Source: a virus
Lineage: Duplodnaviria; Caudoviricetes
Direction: 5' to 3' (one strand)
Length of the DNA stretch: 50,552 bases
IMG/VR virus record: IMGVR_UViG_3300031951_000243
Span: 1-50,552 of that record
This document shows positions 4,273 through 47,174 of the stretch, one piece after another. Made by a program: the position numbers and the translations under genes. Within the stretch, counting starts at the first letter, position 1. The number at the start of each line of letters is the position of its first letter. The notes under the pieces were generated by a model. That model was not told the DNA's origin, ran no database searches, and saw nothing but the letters and a program-made list of their open reading frames with translations.

Positions 4273-5469
4273 ATGAGTTTATCTGCTGAACAACGGTTGA
4301 CCCGCTCTGTCGTGTGGTTGATGGGCGAGCCGAAGTACGCTGCGTTCTCTGGCCTGTACATGATGGGCAAGATCGAGGTCAACGATACGGTGCGCACTGC
4401 ATGCACCAACGGACGTGATGAGTTCTACGGACGTGCATTCGTGGAGTCGCTGACTGATGAGGAGGTGCGTGGTCTCAAGCTGCATGAGACGTGGCACAAA
4501 GCAGGGCGGCACTTCATGGTGTGGAAGCATCTCGCTGATGAAGACTCCAAGCTGGCAAACATGGCGATGGACTACGTGATCAATCTGTTTATTCATGACA
4601 GTGATCCGAAGGGCGAGGATGTGCGTCTACCCAAGGGTGGGCTGCTCGATGAGCGGTTCCGCAACATGGACATCGGTGAGGTGTACAAGGTACTCAAACA
4701 GGAGAAAGACAATGGACAGGGGAACGGTAAAGGGCAAGCAGGACAGAACACGCCGGGTGACGGCGGCGAGGGCGATACCTTGGATGAACATGACTGGGAT
4801 TCTGCGAGTAGCCTCAGTGCAGATGAGCAGGACAAGCTGGCAACAGAGATCGACGAATGCCTCCGGCAAGGTGCGCAAGTAGCAGGCAAGCTGGGTGCGA
4901 AGATGCCACGTGGGCTCGATGAGATTCTGCAACCCAAAGTAGATTGGCGTGAGCAACTGCGTGACTTCGTAGGTGCATTCGCTGCGGGTGCTGACTTGCC
5001 AAGCTATCGCAAACCTAACAGGCGCATGATGGGTGGGGGGCTGGTGATGCCGTCACATATCGCTGAGACTGTCGGCAAGCTGGTGGTTGCAGTGGATGCA
5101 TCGGGGTCAATCATGGGGGCTATGCTGACTGCGCTTTTGTCAGAGGTGAACAGCATCTGTGAAGTGGTCAAGCCCGAGTCGGTCGAGCTGTTGTACTGGG
5201 ACACCGAGGTCTGCCAGCATGAGACGTACGATCAGAACAGCTACGCTGGTCTGTTGACTTCGACTAAGCCACGTGGCGGTGGTGGCACCGATCCGCAGTG
5301 TGTGGTGGACTACATGAAGCAACGTGCTATTCGCGCTGAGTGTGTTGTCGTATTGACTGATGGGTATGTAAGTAGCTGGGGTGCAGATTGGCCGTGCCCT
5401 ACATTGTGGTGCATAACAGAGAAGCGCAAGGTGTCCCCTGTTGGACGTAGCGTACATATCGAGCTGTAA
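4273..5469 (+). CDS. Metallopeptidase-like + VWA domain protein (DUF2201-type)
   Basis: TACTNG, HETWH (HExxH), MIDAS DASGS, GGGGT and LTDG motifs; adjacent to the AAA ATPase. Confidence 0.85.
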   Translation: MSLSAEQRLTRSVVWLMGEPKYAAFSGLYMMGKIEVNDTVRTACTNGRDEFYGRAFVESLTDEEVRGLKLHETWHKAGRHFMVWKHLADEDSKLANMAMDYVINLFIHDSDPKGEDVRLPKGGLLDERFRNMDIGEVYKVLKQEKDNGQGNGKGQAGQNTPGDGGEGDTLDEHDWDSASSLSADEQDKLATEIDECLRQGAQVAGKLGAKMPRGLDEILQPKVDWREQLRDFVGAFAAGADLPSYRKPNRRMMGGGLVMPSHIAETVGKLVVAVDASGSIMGAMLTALLSEVNSICEVVKPESVELLYWDTEVCQHETYDQNSYAGLLTSTKPRGGGGTDPQCVVDYMKQRAIRAECVVVLTDGYVSSWGADWPCPTLWCITEKRKVSPVGRSVHIEL

Positions 5470-8247: not shown

Positions 8248-8913
8248 ATGGATATGAAAGTCAAAGAAACAGCAGTCGTTATTTCCGCACCAAAGTTCAA
8301 CACCGTTGAGATTCTATTGCAGGGCACTGCCCCGCTGGTGGTCGCACGTTTCAGCAAGAAGGTTGACCTGATGATGAAGATGGCGCAGGGCACCACGGCT
8401 AAGAGTAAGAAAGAACGCAGCGCCCGTGACTATGACAAAGAAGCGGATGACGCACGTTACTACTCAATGGAGGGTTGGGAAGGTGTAAACGCAGCAGCAT
8501 TCCGCGCAGGGATGATCAGTGCATGCCGACTGGTCGGGTTCAAGATGACGCTGGCAAAGCTGTCGGTGTTTGTCGAGGCTGATGGTTGGGATAAGCAGGA
8601 TGGCATCCCACTGGTGCGCGTGTATGGCAAGTCCGAGACCTTCACTGCACACACCAGAAACGCTACAGGTGTAGTGGACGTGCGTAGCCGTCCGATGTAT
8701 CGCGACTGGGCTATCAAGTTACGTGTTCGCTTCGACGCAGATCAGTTCACCGCGCAGGATGTGTACAACTTAATTGCACGTGTTGGTGGGCAGGTCGGTC
8801 TGTGCGAAGGTCGCCCAGATTCCAAGTCTTCTGCGGGTTGTGGCTTCGGTACGTTTGAGGTGGTGCCGAATGACCGCCAGAAGGAAGTCAGCAAGAAGTT
8901 CGGCATTAAGTAA
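8248..8913 (+). CDS. Solo Cas7/RAMP-superfamily-like RNA-binding protein; candidate effector of the adjacent array
   Basis: N-terminal strand ILLQGTAPLVV; helix GVNAAAFRAGMISA, equivalent to the RAMP IPGSSLKGALR motif; C-terminal glycine-rich loop GGQVGLCEGRP...GCGFGTFEV. Sits immediately upstream of the repeat array. Confidence 0.75.
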   Translation: MDMKVKETAVVISAPKFNTVEILLQGTAPLVVARFSKKVDLMMKMAQGTTAKSKKERSARDYDKEADDARYYSMEGWEGVNAAAFRAGMISACRLVGFKMTLAKLSVFVEADGWDKQDGIPLVRVYGKSETFTAHTRNATGVVDVRSRPMYRDWAIKLRVRFDADQFTAQDVYNLIARVGGQVGLCEGRPDSKSSAGCGFGTFEVVPNDRQKEVSKKFGIK

Positions 8914-9078
8914 ATGTGCAAAGCGCCCGGATTCATAAGGACGAGAGGGAAGCTGGCATATCTGATCTTTAACTCTAGATAGACGTAGGGGCGCGAGAAA
9001 ATTCACTATGTCTATCAGCTCTGTAACGCGAAAGGGGGCGCGGAATATGCCTAACCCCCTAACAATCCCAAGGTGCGT
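8914..9078 (+). ncRNA. Structured leader of the array
   Basis: Stem 8978-8988/9006-9016 (11 bp, one G:U); GGCATAT 8955-8961/ATATGCC 9045-9051; AGGGGG 9033-9038/CCCCCT 9055-9060. Confidence 0.45.
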
Positions 9079-10263
9079 GGCGTGGCAGGTGGCGTGGGGA
9101 CAGGCGGCGCGCGGTGGCGTAAGGTGGGATTCGGTTTGGTTTGCCACGGTAAGGCAGGTGCGGCACGGCCCGGCCCGGTACGACGCGGTTGGTTCAGGTT
9201 CCGGTGTGGTCGGGTACGGTAAGGCAGGAGCGGCGTGGATCGTTGTGGTTTGTTCCCGTAGCGTCAGGTATGGTGGGTTAAGGCAGGTCCGGCGTGGTAG
9301 CGCAGGGTAGCGTATGTCTGCGTAGCGATAGGTGCGGTGAGATGGGGTAAGGCAGGTCGGGTTAGGCTGGGCTTCGTTCGGTGCGAAATGGTGCGGTGAG
9401 GCGGGGTGAAGTAAGGCAGGACCGGCAACGCCCGTTTAGGTTCGTTCGGGCCGGGTTTGGTTGGGTAAGGCAGGTATGGCATGTCATGGTCAGGCGAGGT
9501 GAGGTTGGGTTCGGTCCGGTGAGGTAGGGCAGGTATGGATTGGCATGTTCGCGTTCGGTGCGATGGGGTATGTTCGGGTAAGGCAGGTCTGGCTCGGCAA
9601 GGCTCGGTTGTGTATCGCAAGGTCTGGTAAGGCAGGTGAGGATCGGCACGGATAGTTCAGGCGCGATCTGGTGGGGTAAGGCAGGTTAGGCAGCGCAGGG
9701 CAAGGTGCGGTATCGCATGGTCAGGTTTGGATTGGTAAGGCAGGTGAGGTGTCGCAAGGCAAGGTTAGATGTCGTGCGGAATGGTAAGGCAGGTATGGCA
9801 AGGTGCGGTGCGTTGCAGTACGGAGTGGTTGGTTAAGGCAGGTGTGACCCGGCTCGGCAACGCGAGGTTTGGTGCGGCGAGATCAGGTAAGGCAGGTGAG
9901 GCAGCGTATGGACGGGCACGGTATGGTTGGGTGTGGTAGGGCAGGTATGGCAAGGCTCGGCAGGGTTAGAGAGCGGTAAGGCAGGTCAGTTCAGGCGAGG
10001 CTTGGTGGGGTATGGCGCGGTGGAATGCGGTCTGGTTCGGCGGGGTGAGGTGAGGCAGGTACGCCTACGCGTGGTATGGGTGCGTTCGGCTGGGTGAGGT
10101 GAGGCAGGTTAGGCGGGGCAACGTGGCGTTAGGCGTGGTGCCGTGCGGTCTGGTAACGCAGGTGAGGTGTGGCACGGAGCGGTACGGTCGGGCGGGTTGA
10201 GGTCCGGCAGGTTAGCTCTGGATGGGCGAGTTCTGGCGAGATAACGCAAGGTGAGGCAGGTAA
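9079..10263 (+). repeat. Non-coding GGY-NN pentamer array of 21 units delimited by GGTAAGGCA(GG); putative guide-RNA array (CRISPR-like but not a canonical CRISPR)
   Basis: Delimiters start at 9079, 9148, 9218, 9277, 9346, 9410, 9464, 9523, 9577, 9626, 9675, 9734, 9783, 9832, 9886, 9935, 9975, 10049, 10098, 10152, 10201 and 10250. Periods are 49/54/59/64/69/74 (5n+4) except one of 70 and one of 40. Confidence 0.92.
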
Positions 10264-10280: not shown

Positions 10281-10745
10281 ATGAAAGAAGAACGGAAGTT
10301 TTTAGAGCAACTAGCAAAACGCAACGGCGGCATGTTGATGGTAGAGGACGTGCTGAATGAAGCGAAAGACCCAAGGTGCATACTGCACAAACACTTTCAG
10401 TGGGATGACACCGCCGCAGCGGAATCGTATCGCAAGCTGCAAGCGCGTCAGCTAATCCAGAAGTGCGTGGTCACCGTAGAGAAGGCACCTGATGTGCCTA
10501 TTCGTGCGTTTGTTAGTCTGACTACTGATCAATACTCAGGTGGTGGCTATCGTATGACGGCAGAAGTTTTGTCGGACGATGACTTGAAGTCGCAGTTGCT
10601 GCATGACATGATGGTCACGCTGACCAAGTGGAAGAAACAGATTAACTTGATGGATAGGGAGACTGCTGCAATCATTGATCAACTGGAAGGCATTGTACGT
10701 ACCAAGACTAAACCCAAACACAAATCCGTAACGAGCAGAGTATGA
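10281..10745 (+). CDS. Conserved phage protein; candidate accessory of the RAMP/array locus
   Basis: GxLxxEDVLxEAKDPxxxLHxxFxWDDxxAAxxYRxxQARxLI motif; CTTGGAGG RBS directly after the array. Confidence 0.75.
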   Translation: MKEERKFLEQLAKRNGGMLMVEDVLNEAKDPRCILHKHFQWDDTAAAESYRKLQARQLIQKCVVTVEKAPDVPIRAFVSLTTDQYSGGGYRMTAEVLSDDDLKSQLLHDMMVTLTKWKKQINLMDRETAAIIDQLEGIVRTKTKPKHKSVTSRV

Positions 10746-40073: not shown

Positions 40074-41156
40074 TTACGTCTTGATGATGAAGTTGATGCC
40101 GAGATATGGAGGCATGTTTGCGTTAGTGCCGGATGAACCTTCTGTGCTGTTAGATACAGAAATCCCAGTGCCCACGGTTGTAGTTGCCTGTGTTTTGTTT
40201 GTCGCATCCTGTCGATCACCACCGCCCCAAGCAGGGTTTGTATTGCCAGCGTTAGAGCCACGCCAGACATTTAACGTCATGCTATGCGAGTGCCCCGGAT
40301 CAGTGACCGTTGCTGTGTGGGTGTGGCTTACAACAATCGCGTCTTTGGAGCCGCCTGTAGCGCCGATTGAAGCAGCGATAGTGTTTGCCCCAATAGGCAT
40401 CCTGTCCCGATAGTCGGGTAAATTAAAGGTTGTAGTCGTGTCTCCTGCGCCAAACGTCGTACCAATCACAGCAAACAAAGCTGCATAGGTGGTGCGAGAT
40501 ACCGCCGCACCGTTACATAACAGCCATCCAGTAGGCGCGGTACCAGTGGACCACATAGTAAGTACCCCAGTAGGAACACCACTAGCAACCGCTGAGTCTA
40601 CGTATTGTTTGGGAGCCGCTTGTAATGCGAGTGTTGGATTAGCATTAAGCGTTACCGTGCTGCCAAATGTAGCTGCACCAGAAAAAGTAGTTGCCCCGCC
40701 AACACTAAAACCGCCTACAACCTGATTTAATTGTTCAACGATATTTGTGCCGTCCGAGCGCAAAAGAACCGATTTGCCTGCGGGAACCGCAACACCCGTA
40801 CCCGCTGCCGTAGTATTGCCAAGAACTGTAGAGCAGTAGACTGTAGCCGTATAGGTAGAGTCTGTATTACGTACAACGTACAACTTAGTAACCGGGGGTA
40901 CATAAACATTAAAGTTAGCGGGAGAACCCCATGCACCTATTGAGAGGTCTATCGCAGCACACCGTGCTTCATCCGCCGATCCGTTTGATGCAGTTAAAGC
41001 TTGATTAGCAGAGGTAACTGAAACTGAAGCCCGTCCAGCAATAGCATCTTCAATCAGCGTGCCAAGATTAGTGTTGGTCGTAGTTCCCCACGTACCTGAC
41101 TGTTCGCCGTTGGCAATGAGTTCGATCCGTAGATCGGGAGAGTATGTACTAGGCAT
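40074..41156 (-). CDS. Tail fibre with tail-collar domain
   Basis: GEQSGTWG N-terminus; PTGWLLCNGAAVSRTTYAALFAVIGTTFG..FNLPD; NMPPYLGINFIIKT. Confidence 0.88.
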   Translation of the reverse strand: MPSTYSPDLRIELIANGEQSGTWGTTTNTNLGTLIEDAIAGRASVSVTSANQALTASNGSADEARCAAIDLSIGAWGSPANFNVYVPPVTKLYVVRNTDSTYTATVYCSTVLGNTTAAGTGVAVPAGKSVLLRSDGTNIVEQLNQVVGGFSVGGATTFSGAATFGSTVTLNANPTLALQAAPKQYVDSAVASGVPTGVLTMWSTGTAPTGWLLCNGAAVSRTTYAALFAVIGTTFGAGDTTTTFNLPDYRDRMPIGANTIAASIGATGGSKDAIVVSHTHTATVTDPGHSHSMTLNVWRGSNAGNTNPAWGGGDRQDATNKTQATTTVGTGISVSNSTEGSSGTNANMPPYLGINFIIKT

Positions 41157-44312: not shown

Positions 44313-45257
44313 CTAAAATTTAATACACGCTAACAAAGCCACGTTAGTTGGTCGAGATTCGCTCCCTGAAGGGCTACTATTACCTTGGTTCGCATCGCCA
44401 GTTGCTATACCCGAAAGGTTAGGTTTGAAGTTATTAATATTTATTGGGTTGTAGTTCCCGGATATAAAGTTTGAAGCGGATAAGTTTTGGGTTCTACTGG
44501 CGCTATTAATAACATAATGTCTATGCGACGTAATACCAGCACCCTGATTAGACCCAAACCCGCGCCCCGGATCAAGTCCACGTCCATCGTCCCACGAACG
44601 TATAAATCGCGCCCTAAGATCAGGTACATTAAAACTACTACCTCCACCACCGAATGTATAACCAATAGCAGCAAATAAATTAGGATAAGTAGCTGTTGAA
44701 AGTGAAGCCCCGTTTGCCTTCAGATAACCCGTGGGGGGTGTACTCGCCGCGTAGAAAATAACATCCCCAGTTGAAACCGAAAAATTAGCACTATTCGCCC
44801 ATATAGGCGCACCTGCGCCCCCAGAGGTAAGTATTTGCCCAGACGTACCAGCAGCTAACAACGAAAATACATTTGTACCTGACGCATACAATAATTGCCC
44901 CGTAGATGCCCCAAGCCCAAACGTATCTATAGTTGATCCATCTACACTCACCGAACGTGCTGCGGTATAGGTTACAAATACATCTTTAGTGCCGCTGGAA
45001 AAATTTGTCTTAGTCGGCGCACCTGCACTTGAAGCTAATACCGTGTCACGAGAAAGTGTTGTACCAGAAGCGGTGTACGTACCAATACCTACTTCCCACT
45101 CCGACGTACCCTGCCCAGCTATACAATAATAGGTGGTGTTGCCATCACCGATAACAGTAAAAGACTGAAAGCCCGTAACTGCGCCAAGAAGCGTAACGGC
45201 CCCTGTACCTGTAGTGGTAGTAGTTTCTTTTACACGATCCGTTAGTACTAAAGGCAT
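44313..45257 (-). CDS. Tail fibre / collar-domain protein, paralogue 3
   Basis: [13 protein letters not shown] N-terminus; collar PTGYLKANG..FNVPDLR..RxWDDGRG; [13 protein letters not shown]. Confidence 0.85.
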   Translation of the reverse strand: MPLVLTDRVKETTTTTGTGAVTLLGAVTGFQSFTVIGDGNTTYYCIAGQGTSEWEVGIGTYTASGTTLSRDTVLASSAGAPTKTNFSSGTKDVFVTYTAARSVSVDGSTIDTFGLGASTGQLLYASGTNVFSLLAAGTSGQILTSGGAGAPIWANSANFSVSTGDVIFYAASTPPTGYLKANGASLSTATYPNLFAAIGYTFGGGGSSFNVPDLRARFIRSWDDGRGLDPGRGFGSNQGAGITSHRHYVINSASRTQNLSASNFISGNYNPININNFKPNLSGIATGDANQGNSSPSGSESRPTNVALLACIKF

Positions 45258-45269
45258 CTTTATATATAG

Positions 45270-46217
45270 TTAAAATTTAATACATGCAAGTAAAGCGGTG
45301 TTTAATGGTCTAGTTTCGCTAGTTCCAAAAGCACTACTAAGACCATAGTTAGCATCGCCGGTAGCTACGCCCGAAAGGTTTGCTCTAGTGTTATCTCTAT
45401 TACCGGGGTTATAGTCCCCAGACCAAGCATTTATATCACTTAAGTTCTGGGTTCTACCGGCGCTATTAACTGCATAATGGCGGTGAGCTAAAAAATCACT
45501 ACCCTGATTAGAACCAAACCCACGACCGGGGTCTAGCCCGCGCCCATCATCCCAACCACGTATAAACTGCCCTCTAAGATCAGGTACATTAAAACTACCG
45601 CCCCCACCGCCAAACGTATAACCAATAGCAGCAAATAAATCAGGATAAGTAGCTGTTGAAAGTGATGCTCCGTTTGCCTTCAAATACCCTGTTGGAGGTG
45701 TGCTAACTGCGCTGTATGTAATGCTGCCCGCAGGTACAACATATGATGAAGAAGTTATCCATGAAGGTGCACCCGCCCCGCCAGAAGTAAATATTTGCCC
45801 TAACGCCCCAGCAGCTAACAACGAAAATACATCCGTACCAGAGGCATATAGCAGTTGACCCGCAGATGCTCCGAGCCCAAACGTATCTATAGTTGACCCA
45901 TCTACATTTACTGAACGGGTAGCTGTATAAGATACGAATACGTCTTTAGTTCCGCCAGAAAAATTTGTCTTAGTCGGCGCTCCCGCGCTAGATGCTAATA
46001 CAGTATCACGAGACAACGTAGTTCCAGAAGCTGTGTAAGTACCAATACCTACTTCCCATTCATTAGTACCTTGACCTGCTATGCAATAGTAGGTGGTGTT
46101 GCCATCGCCAATTACCGCAAAAGATTGAAACCCTAAGACCGCACCAGCAAGCGTAACAGTACCAGTACCAGTTGTAATGGTAGTTTCTTTTATGCGATCT
46201 GCTAGTACTAAAGGCAT
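45270..46217 (-). CDS. Tail fibre / collar-domain protein, paralogue 2
   Basis: Same architecture as its neighbours. Confidence 0.85.
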   Translation of the reverse strand: MPLVLADRIKETTITTGTGTVTLAGAVLGFQSFAVIGDGNTTYYCIAGQGTNEWEVGIGTYTASGTTLSRDTVLASSAGAPTKTNFSGGTKDVFVSYTATRSVNVDGSTIDTFGLGASAGQLLYASGTDVFSLLAAGALGQIFTSGGAGAPSWITSSSYVVPAGSITYSAVSTPPTGYLKANGASLSTATYPDLFAAIGYTFGGGGGSFNVPDLRGQFIRGWDDGRGLDPGRGFGSNQGSDFLAHRHYAVNSAGRTQNLSDINAWSGDYNPGNRDNTRANLSGVATGDANYGLSSAFGTSETRPLNTALLACIKF

Positions 46218-46229
46218 ATTTATCTACTG

Positions 46230-47174
46230 TTAAAATTTAATACACGCAAGTAAAGCTACGTTAGTTGGCCGAGACTCACCACCGCCTGCGGAACTCATTA
46301 GACCAAAGTTTGGAGTACCAACTACGCCCGCGAGAACAGGCTTAAAATTATCGTTATTTATCGGGTTATAAAACCCGGATAGAAAATTTGAAGCAGATAA
46401 ATTCTGAGTTCGAGAGCCGTTGTTTACTACGTAGTGAAGGTGGAAAGCATTATCACCACCTTGGTTTGTTCCGAATCCCCGCCCCGAATCAATCCCCCGA
46501 CCATCATCCCAAGTTCGTATAAATTGCCCCCTGAGATCGGGAACATTAAAACTAGCCCCACCCCCGCCGAACGTATAACCAATAGCGGAAAATAGATTGG
46601 AGTAAGTAGTTGTTGAAAGTGATGCTCCGTTTGCTTTTAAATAGCCAGCGGGCGGCGTACTAGCGGCAAAACACCAGACAGTCCCCGCAGGCACACCATA
46701 CGATGAAGCATTAGCCCATGAAGGGGCTGCGGTCGAATTAGAAACTAAAAATTGCCCAGACGTGCCAGCAGCTAGTAGCGAGAATACATCTGTACCTGAC
46801 GCGTATAGCAATTGACCAGCAGATGCTCCTAATCCAGCCGTATCTATGTTTGAGCCGTCAACATTTACGGAACGCGAAGCAGGGTAAGTTACAAATACGT
46901 CTTTAGTCCCACCTGAGAACGTAGTCTTAGTCGGCGCACCTGCACTCGATGCAAGTACGGTATCACGGGACAGTGTTGTACCGGAGGCTGTATAGGTGCC
47001 AATACCCACCTCCCACTCGTTAGTACCTTGACCTGCTATGCAATAGTAGGTGGTATTGCCATCACCAATAACAGAAAAAGACTGAAAGCCAGTTGAAGCA
47101 CCGAGAAGCGTAACAGTGCCAGTACCATTAGTGGTAGTCGTTTCCTTAACACGATCCGCTAATACCAACGGCAT
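46230..47174 (-). CDS. Tail fibre / collar-domain protein, paralogue 1
   Basis: Same architecture as its neighbours. Confidence 0.85.

What the first reader, a model, noticed from the sequence alone, without database searches (positions are those of the whole stretch)
9088..9156. Unit 1 dinucleotides decode to a helicase-type Walker A motif when read as codon positions 1-2
Seen: the NN series is GG GG CA GG GC GG AA GG TC TT TT AC AA. Inserting one free base after each NN gives G-G-(Q/H)-G-A-G-(K/N)-G-S-(F/L)-(F/L)-T-(K/N), which is compatible with GxQGxGKG(S)FF. Established: GxQGxGK P-loops occur in SF3/VirE-type primase-helicases of phages and satellites. It does not match this phage's own P-loops (GEPGIGKS, EGGTGKST, QGTGKT). 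Inference: the guide specifies a gapped NNx target that skips the wobble base of a conserved essential motif in a competitor, so synonymous changes would not allow escape. This pattern was found post hoc.
Basis: partly seen in the sequence, partly recalled or inferred. Interest (0 to 1): 0.9.

Follow-up and report, generated by a model that had tools for sequence, protein, structure and literature searches.

The report
Phage guide RNA spells helicase motif
This 69-base stretch is the first repeat unit of a phage's VIPR array (a CRISPR-like gene-silencing system described in 2026); read by the published skip-one-base code it spells the ATP-binding loop of a large family of primase-helicases, so the phage likely uses it to silence a rival element's replication gene, although the exact target DNA was not found.

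Summary
Unit 1 (9088-9156) has 13 GGY/NN pentamers with the stated dinucleotides. It opens a 21-unit staggered array beside a RAMP-fold gene whose only PDB sequence match is SUSP1 Vipr, so this is a VIPR system. The Walker A decode beats chance (13 of 20,000 array shuffles, post-hoc motif). It fits DUF5906/VapE primase-helicases: best 22/24 at protein level, 21/24 in DNA. No exact target was found. The best DNA scores (22/24) lie antisense to GAFTGA motifs of unrelated bacteria. Independent support: unit 17 matches motif A of a mobile family A DNA polymerase at 25/26 bases, in frame, wobble skipped. 'Escape-proof' is overstated: only five of twelve codons are near-invariant. This scan noted a Walker A guide before in another genome (e1-9753742). 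Verdict: new member of a known kind; replication-enzyme motifs as targets were not found in the papers searched.

The parts
9088..9156 (+). Unit 1, predicted vrRNA guide: 13 GGY/NN pentamers plus GGCA junction; decodes to a DUF5906/VapE-type Walker A loop
8248..8913 (+). vipr gene, 221 aa, RAMP (Cas7/Csm3-like) fold
   Evidence: only PDB sequence hit SUSP1 Vipr 36pp_D, E 5.5e-4 and 1.6e-4 with a profile; model pLDDT 76.7 matches type III and VII CRISPR subunits; phrog_4652
8914..9087 (+). 174-base leader between vipr and unit 1; most relatives start the array about 10 bases after the stop codon; role unknown
   Evidence: no Rfam match, folding z -0.70, no sigma-70-like promoter
9088..10258 (+). 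Staggered VIPR array, 21 units of length 5n-1 (units 2 and 16 carry one extra base)
   Evidence: 564 of 577 junctions across the clade are 4-base steps
9984..10057 (+). Unit 17, predicted guide matching motif A of a mobile family A DNA polymerase; internal control for the code in this array
10281..10745 (+). Candidate vap accessory gene, 154 aa from ATG; function not tested
   Evidence: phrog_15946; no Pfam match; position directly after the array

Best explanation
Unit 1 is a repeat unit of a phage VIPR array whose variable dinucleotides spell the Walker A loop of DUF5906/VapE primase-helicases, and it likely acts as a guide RNA that would silence such a gene in a rival phage, prophage or satellite. 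Shown here: the array, the Vipr-like protein, the decode, the family fit, and the one-base-skip, wobble-phase code for a second unit of the same array. Taken from the papers on SUSP1 and inferred for this phage: Vipr subunits coat the RNA one per pentamer and bury the GGY triplets; each NN pairs with two bases of the gene's template strand and every third base is flipped out; the bound filament blocks transcription without cutting. Inferred only: the target gene has about this P-loop sequence, lies in an element that shares this phage's host, and its silencing limits that element's replication. The guide exploits conserved codons in DNA; it does not recognise the protein motif.
For: VIPR membership: and the papers. 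Decode beyond chance. Family fit: gapped patterns hit in-frame DUF5906-like helicase genes in 33 of 57 and 16 of 21 viral stretches; Pfam PF19263 confirmed for 6 of 6 tested; third codon positions vary freely at these sites. Two sites reach 21/24 (L082, L056), above the 80% cut-off of the discovery paper. 52 of 384 family proteins are at least 80% compatible, best 22/24; unit 1 ranks first of 498 unit-orientation tests and 0 of 2000 shuffles match as well. Code in this array: unit 17 matches polymerase motif A at 25/26 in 3 of 3 hits, including 4 bases not in the search pattern; gap 1 gives 19-25/26 in 12 of 14 polymerase loci, gaps 0, 2, 3 at most 18. Clade dinucleotide usage follows codon positions 1-2 (Spearman 0.57 sense, 0.66 antisense) rather than 2-3 (0.35, 0.21) or 3-1 (negative). 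No self-target, none in 48 kin contigs.
Against: No exact target: 0 viral hits for the 24-base and the 18-base core patterns; none of the 5 exact 20-base hits in genomes and metagenomes is a helicase. The GKGS[FL][FL] pattern hit a DUF5906 helicase in only 1 of 11 stretches; Ser at codon 9 occurs in 6 of 384 proteins. The protein sets and the HMM were seeded from hits of the unit 1 pattern, so the family tests are partly circular. No other guide matched the flanks of the helicase loci above shuffled guides. The polymerase elements carry no DUF5906 gene in 5 of 5 partial contigs. Unit 1 occurs only in the window and L001 among the parsed arrays. Six of 13 scaffold triplets are non-canonical. 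Expression and processing were not shown.
Confidence: 0.8

Rival explanations
1. The guide reads a Walker A loop, but of another P-loop NTPase of a mobile element rather than a DUF5906/VapE helicase.
For: The GKGS[FL][FL] pattern also hit in-frame P-loop-like stretches in long ORFs outside the DUF5906 profile (L141, L143, L144); Ser at codon 9 is rare in DUF5906.
Against: Those sites reach only 18-19/24. Q at codon 3, G at 8 and F/L at 10-11 are typical of DUF5906 (287, 363, 360, 215 of 384).
Confidence: 0.08
2. The Walker A reading is a coincidence of a GG-rich unit; the real target is something else, or the unit is a decayed guide.
For: Post-hoc motif; within-unit shuffle P is only 0.018; no exact target; 6 of 13 non-canonical scaffold triplets.
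Against: Array-wide P 0.00065; the fit extends beyond the glycines; dinucleotides unchanged in three later samples, one of which replaced 704 bases of downstream units (both changes falling in scaffold has about 0.39 chance alone, so weak).
Confidence: 0.08
3. The guide binds the opposite strand of the GAFTGA motif of host sigma-54 activators and silences a host regulator or acts as a decoy.
For: 4 of 5 exact 20-base hits in genomes and metagenomes are antisense to this motif, two at 22/24, the highest DNA scores found. Host-directed decoy guides are published.
Against: The skipped base is codon position 1, so the match needs particular wobble bases; only 3 hits among 185,579 genomes, in a spirochaete, a gut Bacteroidota bin and Paenibacillus; these activators are very common (own knowledge), so a few such hits are expected.
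Confidence: 0.04

Closest known systems
VIPR systems with staggered vrRNA arrays (bioRxiv 10.64898/2026.04.26.720920, fig. S18 legend; also PMC13142463)
   Same: Phage-borne RAMP gene plus small accessory gene; GGY/NN pentamers; units offset by one base; one-base skip; skip on the wobble position; no self-target.
   Different: Uncultured freshwater phage clade; 21 units; no long structured tail between units; targets are replication-enzyme motifs. I could not assign a VIPR type (figures and data files not seen).
SUSP1 type II VIPR against F5 satellites (bioRxiv 10.64898/2026.10.15.759431; structures in 10.64898/2026.04.26.720927, PDB 36pp)
   Same: A guide reading codon positions 1-2 of a catalytic region of an essential gene in a competitor, argued to block synonymous escape.
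   Different: SUSP1 has four vrRNAs with a pseudoknot tail and a tested recombinase target; here the predicted targets are a helicase Walker A and polymerase motif A, untested, and the Vipr similarity is distant (51 residues aligned).
DUF5906 (PF19263, NrS-1-like) / VapE-like (PF05272) primase-helicases
   Same: Walker A consensus G-x-Q-G-x-G-K-G-x-[FL]-F agrees with the decode.
   Different: No sampled member matches at all 12 codons; best 22/24 (P0152). The family has at least 28,410 clusters at E 1e-10, of which 384 proteins were examined.

Membership tests
VIPR | Stand-alone RAMP-fold (Vipr) protein without CRISPR array or cas genes | tested here: met
   no cas operon among 32 ORFs scanned (one weak Cas4-like match on the phage exonuclease)
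VIPR | Adjacent array of alternating GGY/NN pentamers, about 9-16 per unit | tested here: met
   21 units, unit 1 has 13
VIPR | One-base-skip code, skip mostly on the wobble position | tested here: met
   unit 17; clade composition:
VIPR | Accessory vap gene | tested here: inconclusive
   154-aa ORF directly after the array, phrog_15946; not compared with published Vap proteins
VIPR | No self-target in the encoding genome | tested here: met
VIPR | Array transcribed and processed into small RNAs bound by Vipr | not testable with these tools
   only assembled contigs of three RNA runs were available
VIPR | Guide-directed DNA binding and transcriptional repression | not testable with these tools
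   needs bench work
Natural vrRNA target (published rule: at least 80% NN match, gapless) | Site at 80% or better in a mobile element | tested here: met
   21/24 in L082 and L056 helicase genes
Natural vrRNA target (published rule: at least 80% NN match, gapless) | Target element shares the phage's host and several guides converge on it | tested here: inconclusive
   host unknown; no excess of other guides on the fetched flanks

The most novel reading that the evidence does not exclude
This freshwater phage clade uses its staggered arrays as a library of family-wide guides aimed at the catalytic motifs of replication enzymes (helicase Walker A and B, polymerase motifs A and B) of integrated satellites, so one guide covers many unrelated elements and guide variants track amino-acid variants of the motif. 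Arrays could then be read as peptide patterns to map which uncultured elements fight which phages.
Probability: 0.45. Interest if true: 0.55.

Novelty: new member of a known kind. Interest (0 to 1): 0.33.

Why it matters
The code and the wobble argument are published, so the mechanism is no surprise. What this adds is a target class: catalytic motifs of replication enzymes (helicase P-loop, polymerase motif A) rather than recombinases or repressors. It also shows that guides can be assigned to protein families by reading them as degenerate peptides when the target genome is not sequenced. That gives a testable route to the satellites and rivals of uncultured lake phages.

Tried and rejected
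Exact viral scans with 24 and 18 fixed bases: 0 hits. Exact 20-base scans: 2 metagenome and 3 genome hits, none a helicase. Unit 1 pattern with up to 3 mismatches over 5 polymerase-bearing contigs and 48 kin contigs: 0; most are fragments. All 334 clean units against the flanks of unit 1 hits and against the window: no excess over shuffled guides. The polymerase family has no close record among annotated phages or plasmids. Two sister guides decode to a Walker A-like (L017, locus position 4983; 2 of 2000 shuffles) and a Walker B-like stretch (L010, 4970; 1 of 2000) of the same helicase family, but about 0.5 such results are expected among 498 tests, so they are only suggestive. RNA runs X18-X20 had small shares of words and covered pieces of vipr and the accessory gene at depth about 2, not the array; this says nothing on expression. 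No Rfam family, no unusual fold and no sigma-70 promoter in the leader. Dropped before counts: loci L045, L047, L048 (no usable array) and units with a frame slip or fewer than 6 dinucleotides (2 of 21 window units).

Full report
Setting. The window is a whole 50.5 kb virus record with a family A polymerase, a DUF927 primase, ejection and tail fibre genes; near-identical DNA is in freshwater runs. A 221-aa gene at 8248-8913 is followed by a 174-base leader, an array at 9088-10258 and a 154-aa gene at 10281-10745. The array is 21 units of GGY/NN pentamers, each ending in a 4-base GGCA step so the phase shifts by one base.

Observation. Shuffling dinucleotides over the 19 clean window units gave a GxxGxGK[STG] decode in 13 of 20,000 trials; looser motifs gave 0.012 and 0.116, and shuffling inside the unit 0.018. 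The motif was picked afterwards. Contigs from X12, X15 and X17 carry the unit with the same dinucleotides; X15 and X17 differ at 9129 and 9144, both scaffold bases, and X17 has 704 bases of later units replaced by 124; X13 did not cover the unit.

What the system is. The protein's only PDB sequence match is SUSP1 Vipr, and its model matches CRISPR RAMP subunits. Forty-eight viral loci encode relatives, 45 with usable arrays. This is VIPR. I read the whole held text of the discovery preprint (10.64898/2026.04.26.720920) and term-searched its supplement PDF. It reports the one-base skip, skip bases on the wobble position, the argument about synonymous escape, and staggered arrays with one-base overlap. 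I read parts 1-3 of 8 of 10.64898/2026.10.15.759431 and term-searched its main text: a SUSP1 guide reads codons of a recombinase active site; helicase, primase, polymerase and Walker occur 0 times. I read parts 1-2 of 6 of the structure preprint 10.64898/2026.04.26.720927 and passages of 10.64898/2026.10.21.760802. Searches for VIPR with Walker A and helicase (two unrelated listings) and for VIPR, vrRNA and DNA polymerase (none) found no report of such targets; the discovery paper's data files and the other preprints' supplements were not seen and may list some.

Target search for unit 1. The full pattern and an 18-base core had no exact viral hit. Looser patterns gave 57, 11 and 21 stretches, of which 33, 1 and 16 lie in frame in DUF5906-like helicases by a profile built from 23 of these hits; Pfam confirmed 6 of 6 tested. 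The best helicase sites match 21 of 24 bases (L082, and L056, refound as L148); L082 lies beside repressor, ParB and integrase genes. Among 384 family proteins from three searches the best fit is 22/24 and 52 reach 80%. Unit 1 was the top of 498 unit-orientation tests and beat 2000 of 2000 shuffles. These sets were seeded from unit 1 hits, so the test shows a family fit, not a target. Codons 1, 4, 6, 7, 8 are near-invariant; 3, 10, 11 are common; 2, 5, 9, 12 are minority residues, Ser at 9 in only 6 of 384. The family is huge, so missing the exact member is expected, but it is still missing.

A competing match. The exact 20-base scans of metagenomes and genomes gave 5 hits. Four lie on the strand opposite an ELFG[HY]EKGAFTGA stretch, the sigma-54 activator motif (name from my own knowledge, not from a family scan), two at 22/24, with the skip on codon position 1. 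The three named genomes are unrelated, non-lake lineages. I read these as chance, but cannot exclude them without the host.

Internal control. Clustering guides showed 202 overlaps against 1 in shuffles, none in opposite orientation. The largest cluster, 11 guides including window unit 17, was searched as a pattern: 3 hits, all in frame in a family A polymerase, 25/26 bases, with four bases outside the pattern also matching. The site is the D-x-x-Q-x-E stretch of motif A (motif name from my own knowledge). Unit 17 is fully compatible with 2 of 121 family proteins and at least 80% compatible with all 121; sister guide variants match natural variants of the motif, one at 24/24 in DNA (L014 guide on L118). 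Gap 1 scored 19-25/26 in 12 of 14 polymerase loci, other gaps at most 18; those loci were fetched with peptide words that partly overlap the site, and three are the contigs. One locus shows integrase, polymerase and small terminase genes together (L120), a satellite-like layout. None of five such partial contigs has a DUF5906 gene, so units 1 and 17 may aim at different elements.

How it most likely works. By analogy with SUSP1, the array is transcribed and cut into unit RNAs, Vipr coats each RNA, and the dinucleotides pair with the template strand of the rival's helicase gene, skipping each wobble base, to block transcription. The decode, family fit and code are shown; expression, binding, repression and the identity of the rival are inferred. 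Confidence 0.8. Escape is narrowed, not closed: ten of the 24 read bases sit in near-invariant codons.

Earlier scan notes, looked up after this analysis: none on this genome; e1-9753742 reports a Walker A guide in another VIPR phage, and two others report integrase-motif guides. I did not check them and do not count them as support.

Verdict. A correct observation of a known mechanism; new member of a known kind. The modest new element is the target class. Interest 0.33.

Noticed in passing
window 9984-10057 (unit 17) and related guides in L006, L007, L009, L010, L013-L016, L018, L042: Guide family matching motif A of a mobile family A DNA polymerase (25/26 in DNA); variants follow natural amino-acid variants; the polymerase sits in integrase-polymerase-small terminase elements (L120).
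   Followed up: yes
L008 guide at locus position 5114: Decodes to the V-Q-Y-G-M-G stretch (motif B region) of the same polymerase family; 14/14 on L122; short, so weaker.
   Followed up: partly
window 10107-10160 (unit 19) and L002, L004, L006, L014, L017: Recurrent guide family decoding to G-Y-G-[KN]-G-Y-V-A-A-[LF]; target not found. Units at 9586 and 10161 are also shared with sister arrays.
   Followed up: no
L017 position 4983 and L010 position 4970: Sister guides that decode to Walker A-like and Walker B-like helicase stretches; suggestive only after 498 tests.
   Followed up: partly
window 8914-9087; L008 4664-4810: A leader of 150-170 bases between vipr and the array, with a shared G-run/C-run end, is present in the window and L008 but absent in most relatives; run X2 and X17 contigs show other sequences after the vipr stop.
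   Followed up: partly
window 9229-9932 in run X17: A later population has this part of the array replaced by 124 bases while units 1-2 and the 3' units are kept: array turnover in the middle.
   Followed up: no
clade arrays L001-L046: Scaffold triplets are often non-canonical and depend on the preceding dinucleotide: after GG, 70 of 227 do not start with GG against 624 of 2900 after others (P 0.002, related units not independent).
   Followed up: partly
GenBank BK059895.1 and 25 Mycobacterium phage records: Vipr relatives at 56% (cyanophage Cy-LDV1) and 33% identity, annotated as hypothetical in the 20 rows shown.
   Followed up: no
window 44313-47174 (minus strand): Three tandem paralogous tail collar fibre genes of 314-315 aa, plus a fourth related gene at 40074-41156.
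   Followed up: no
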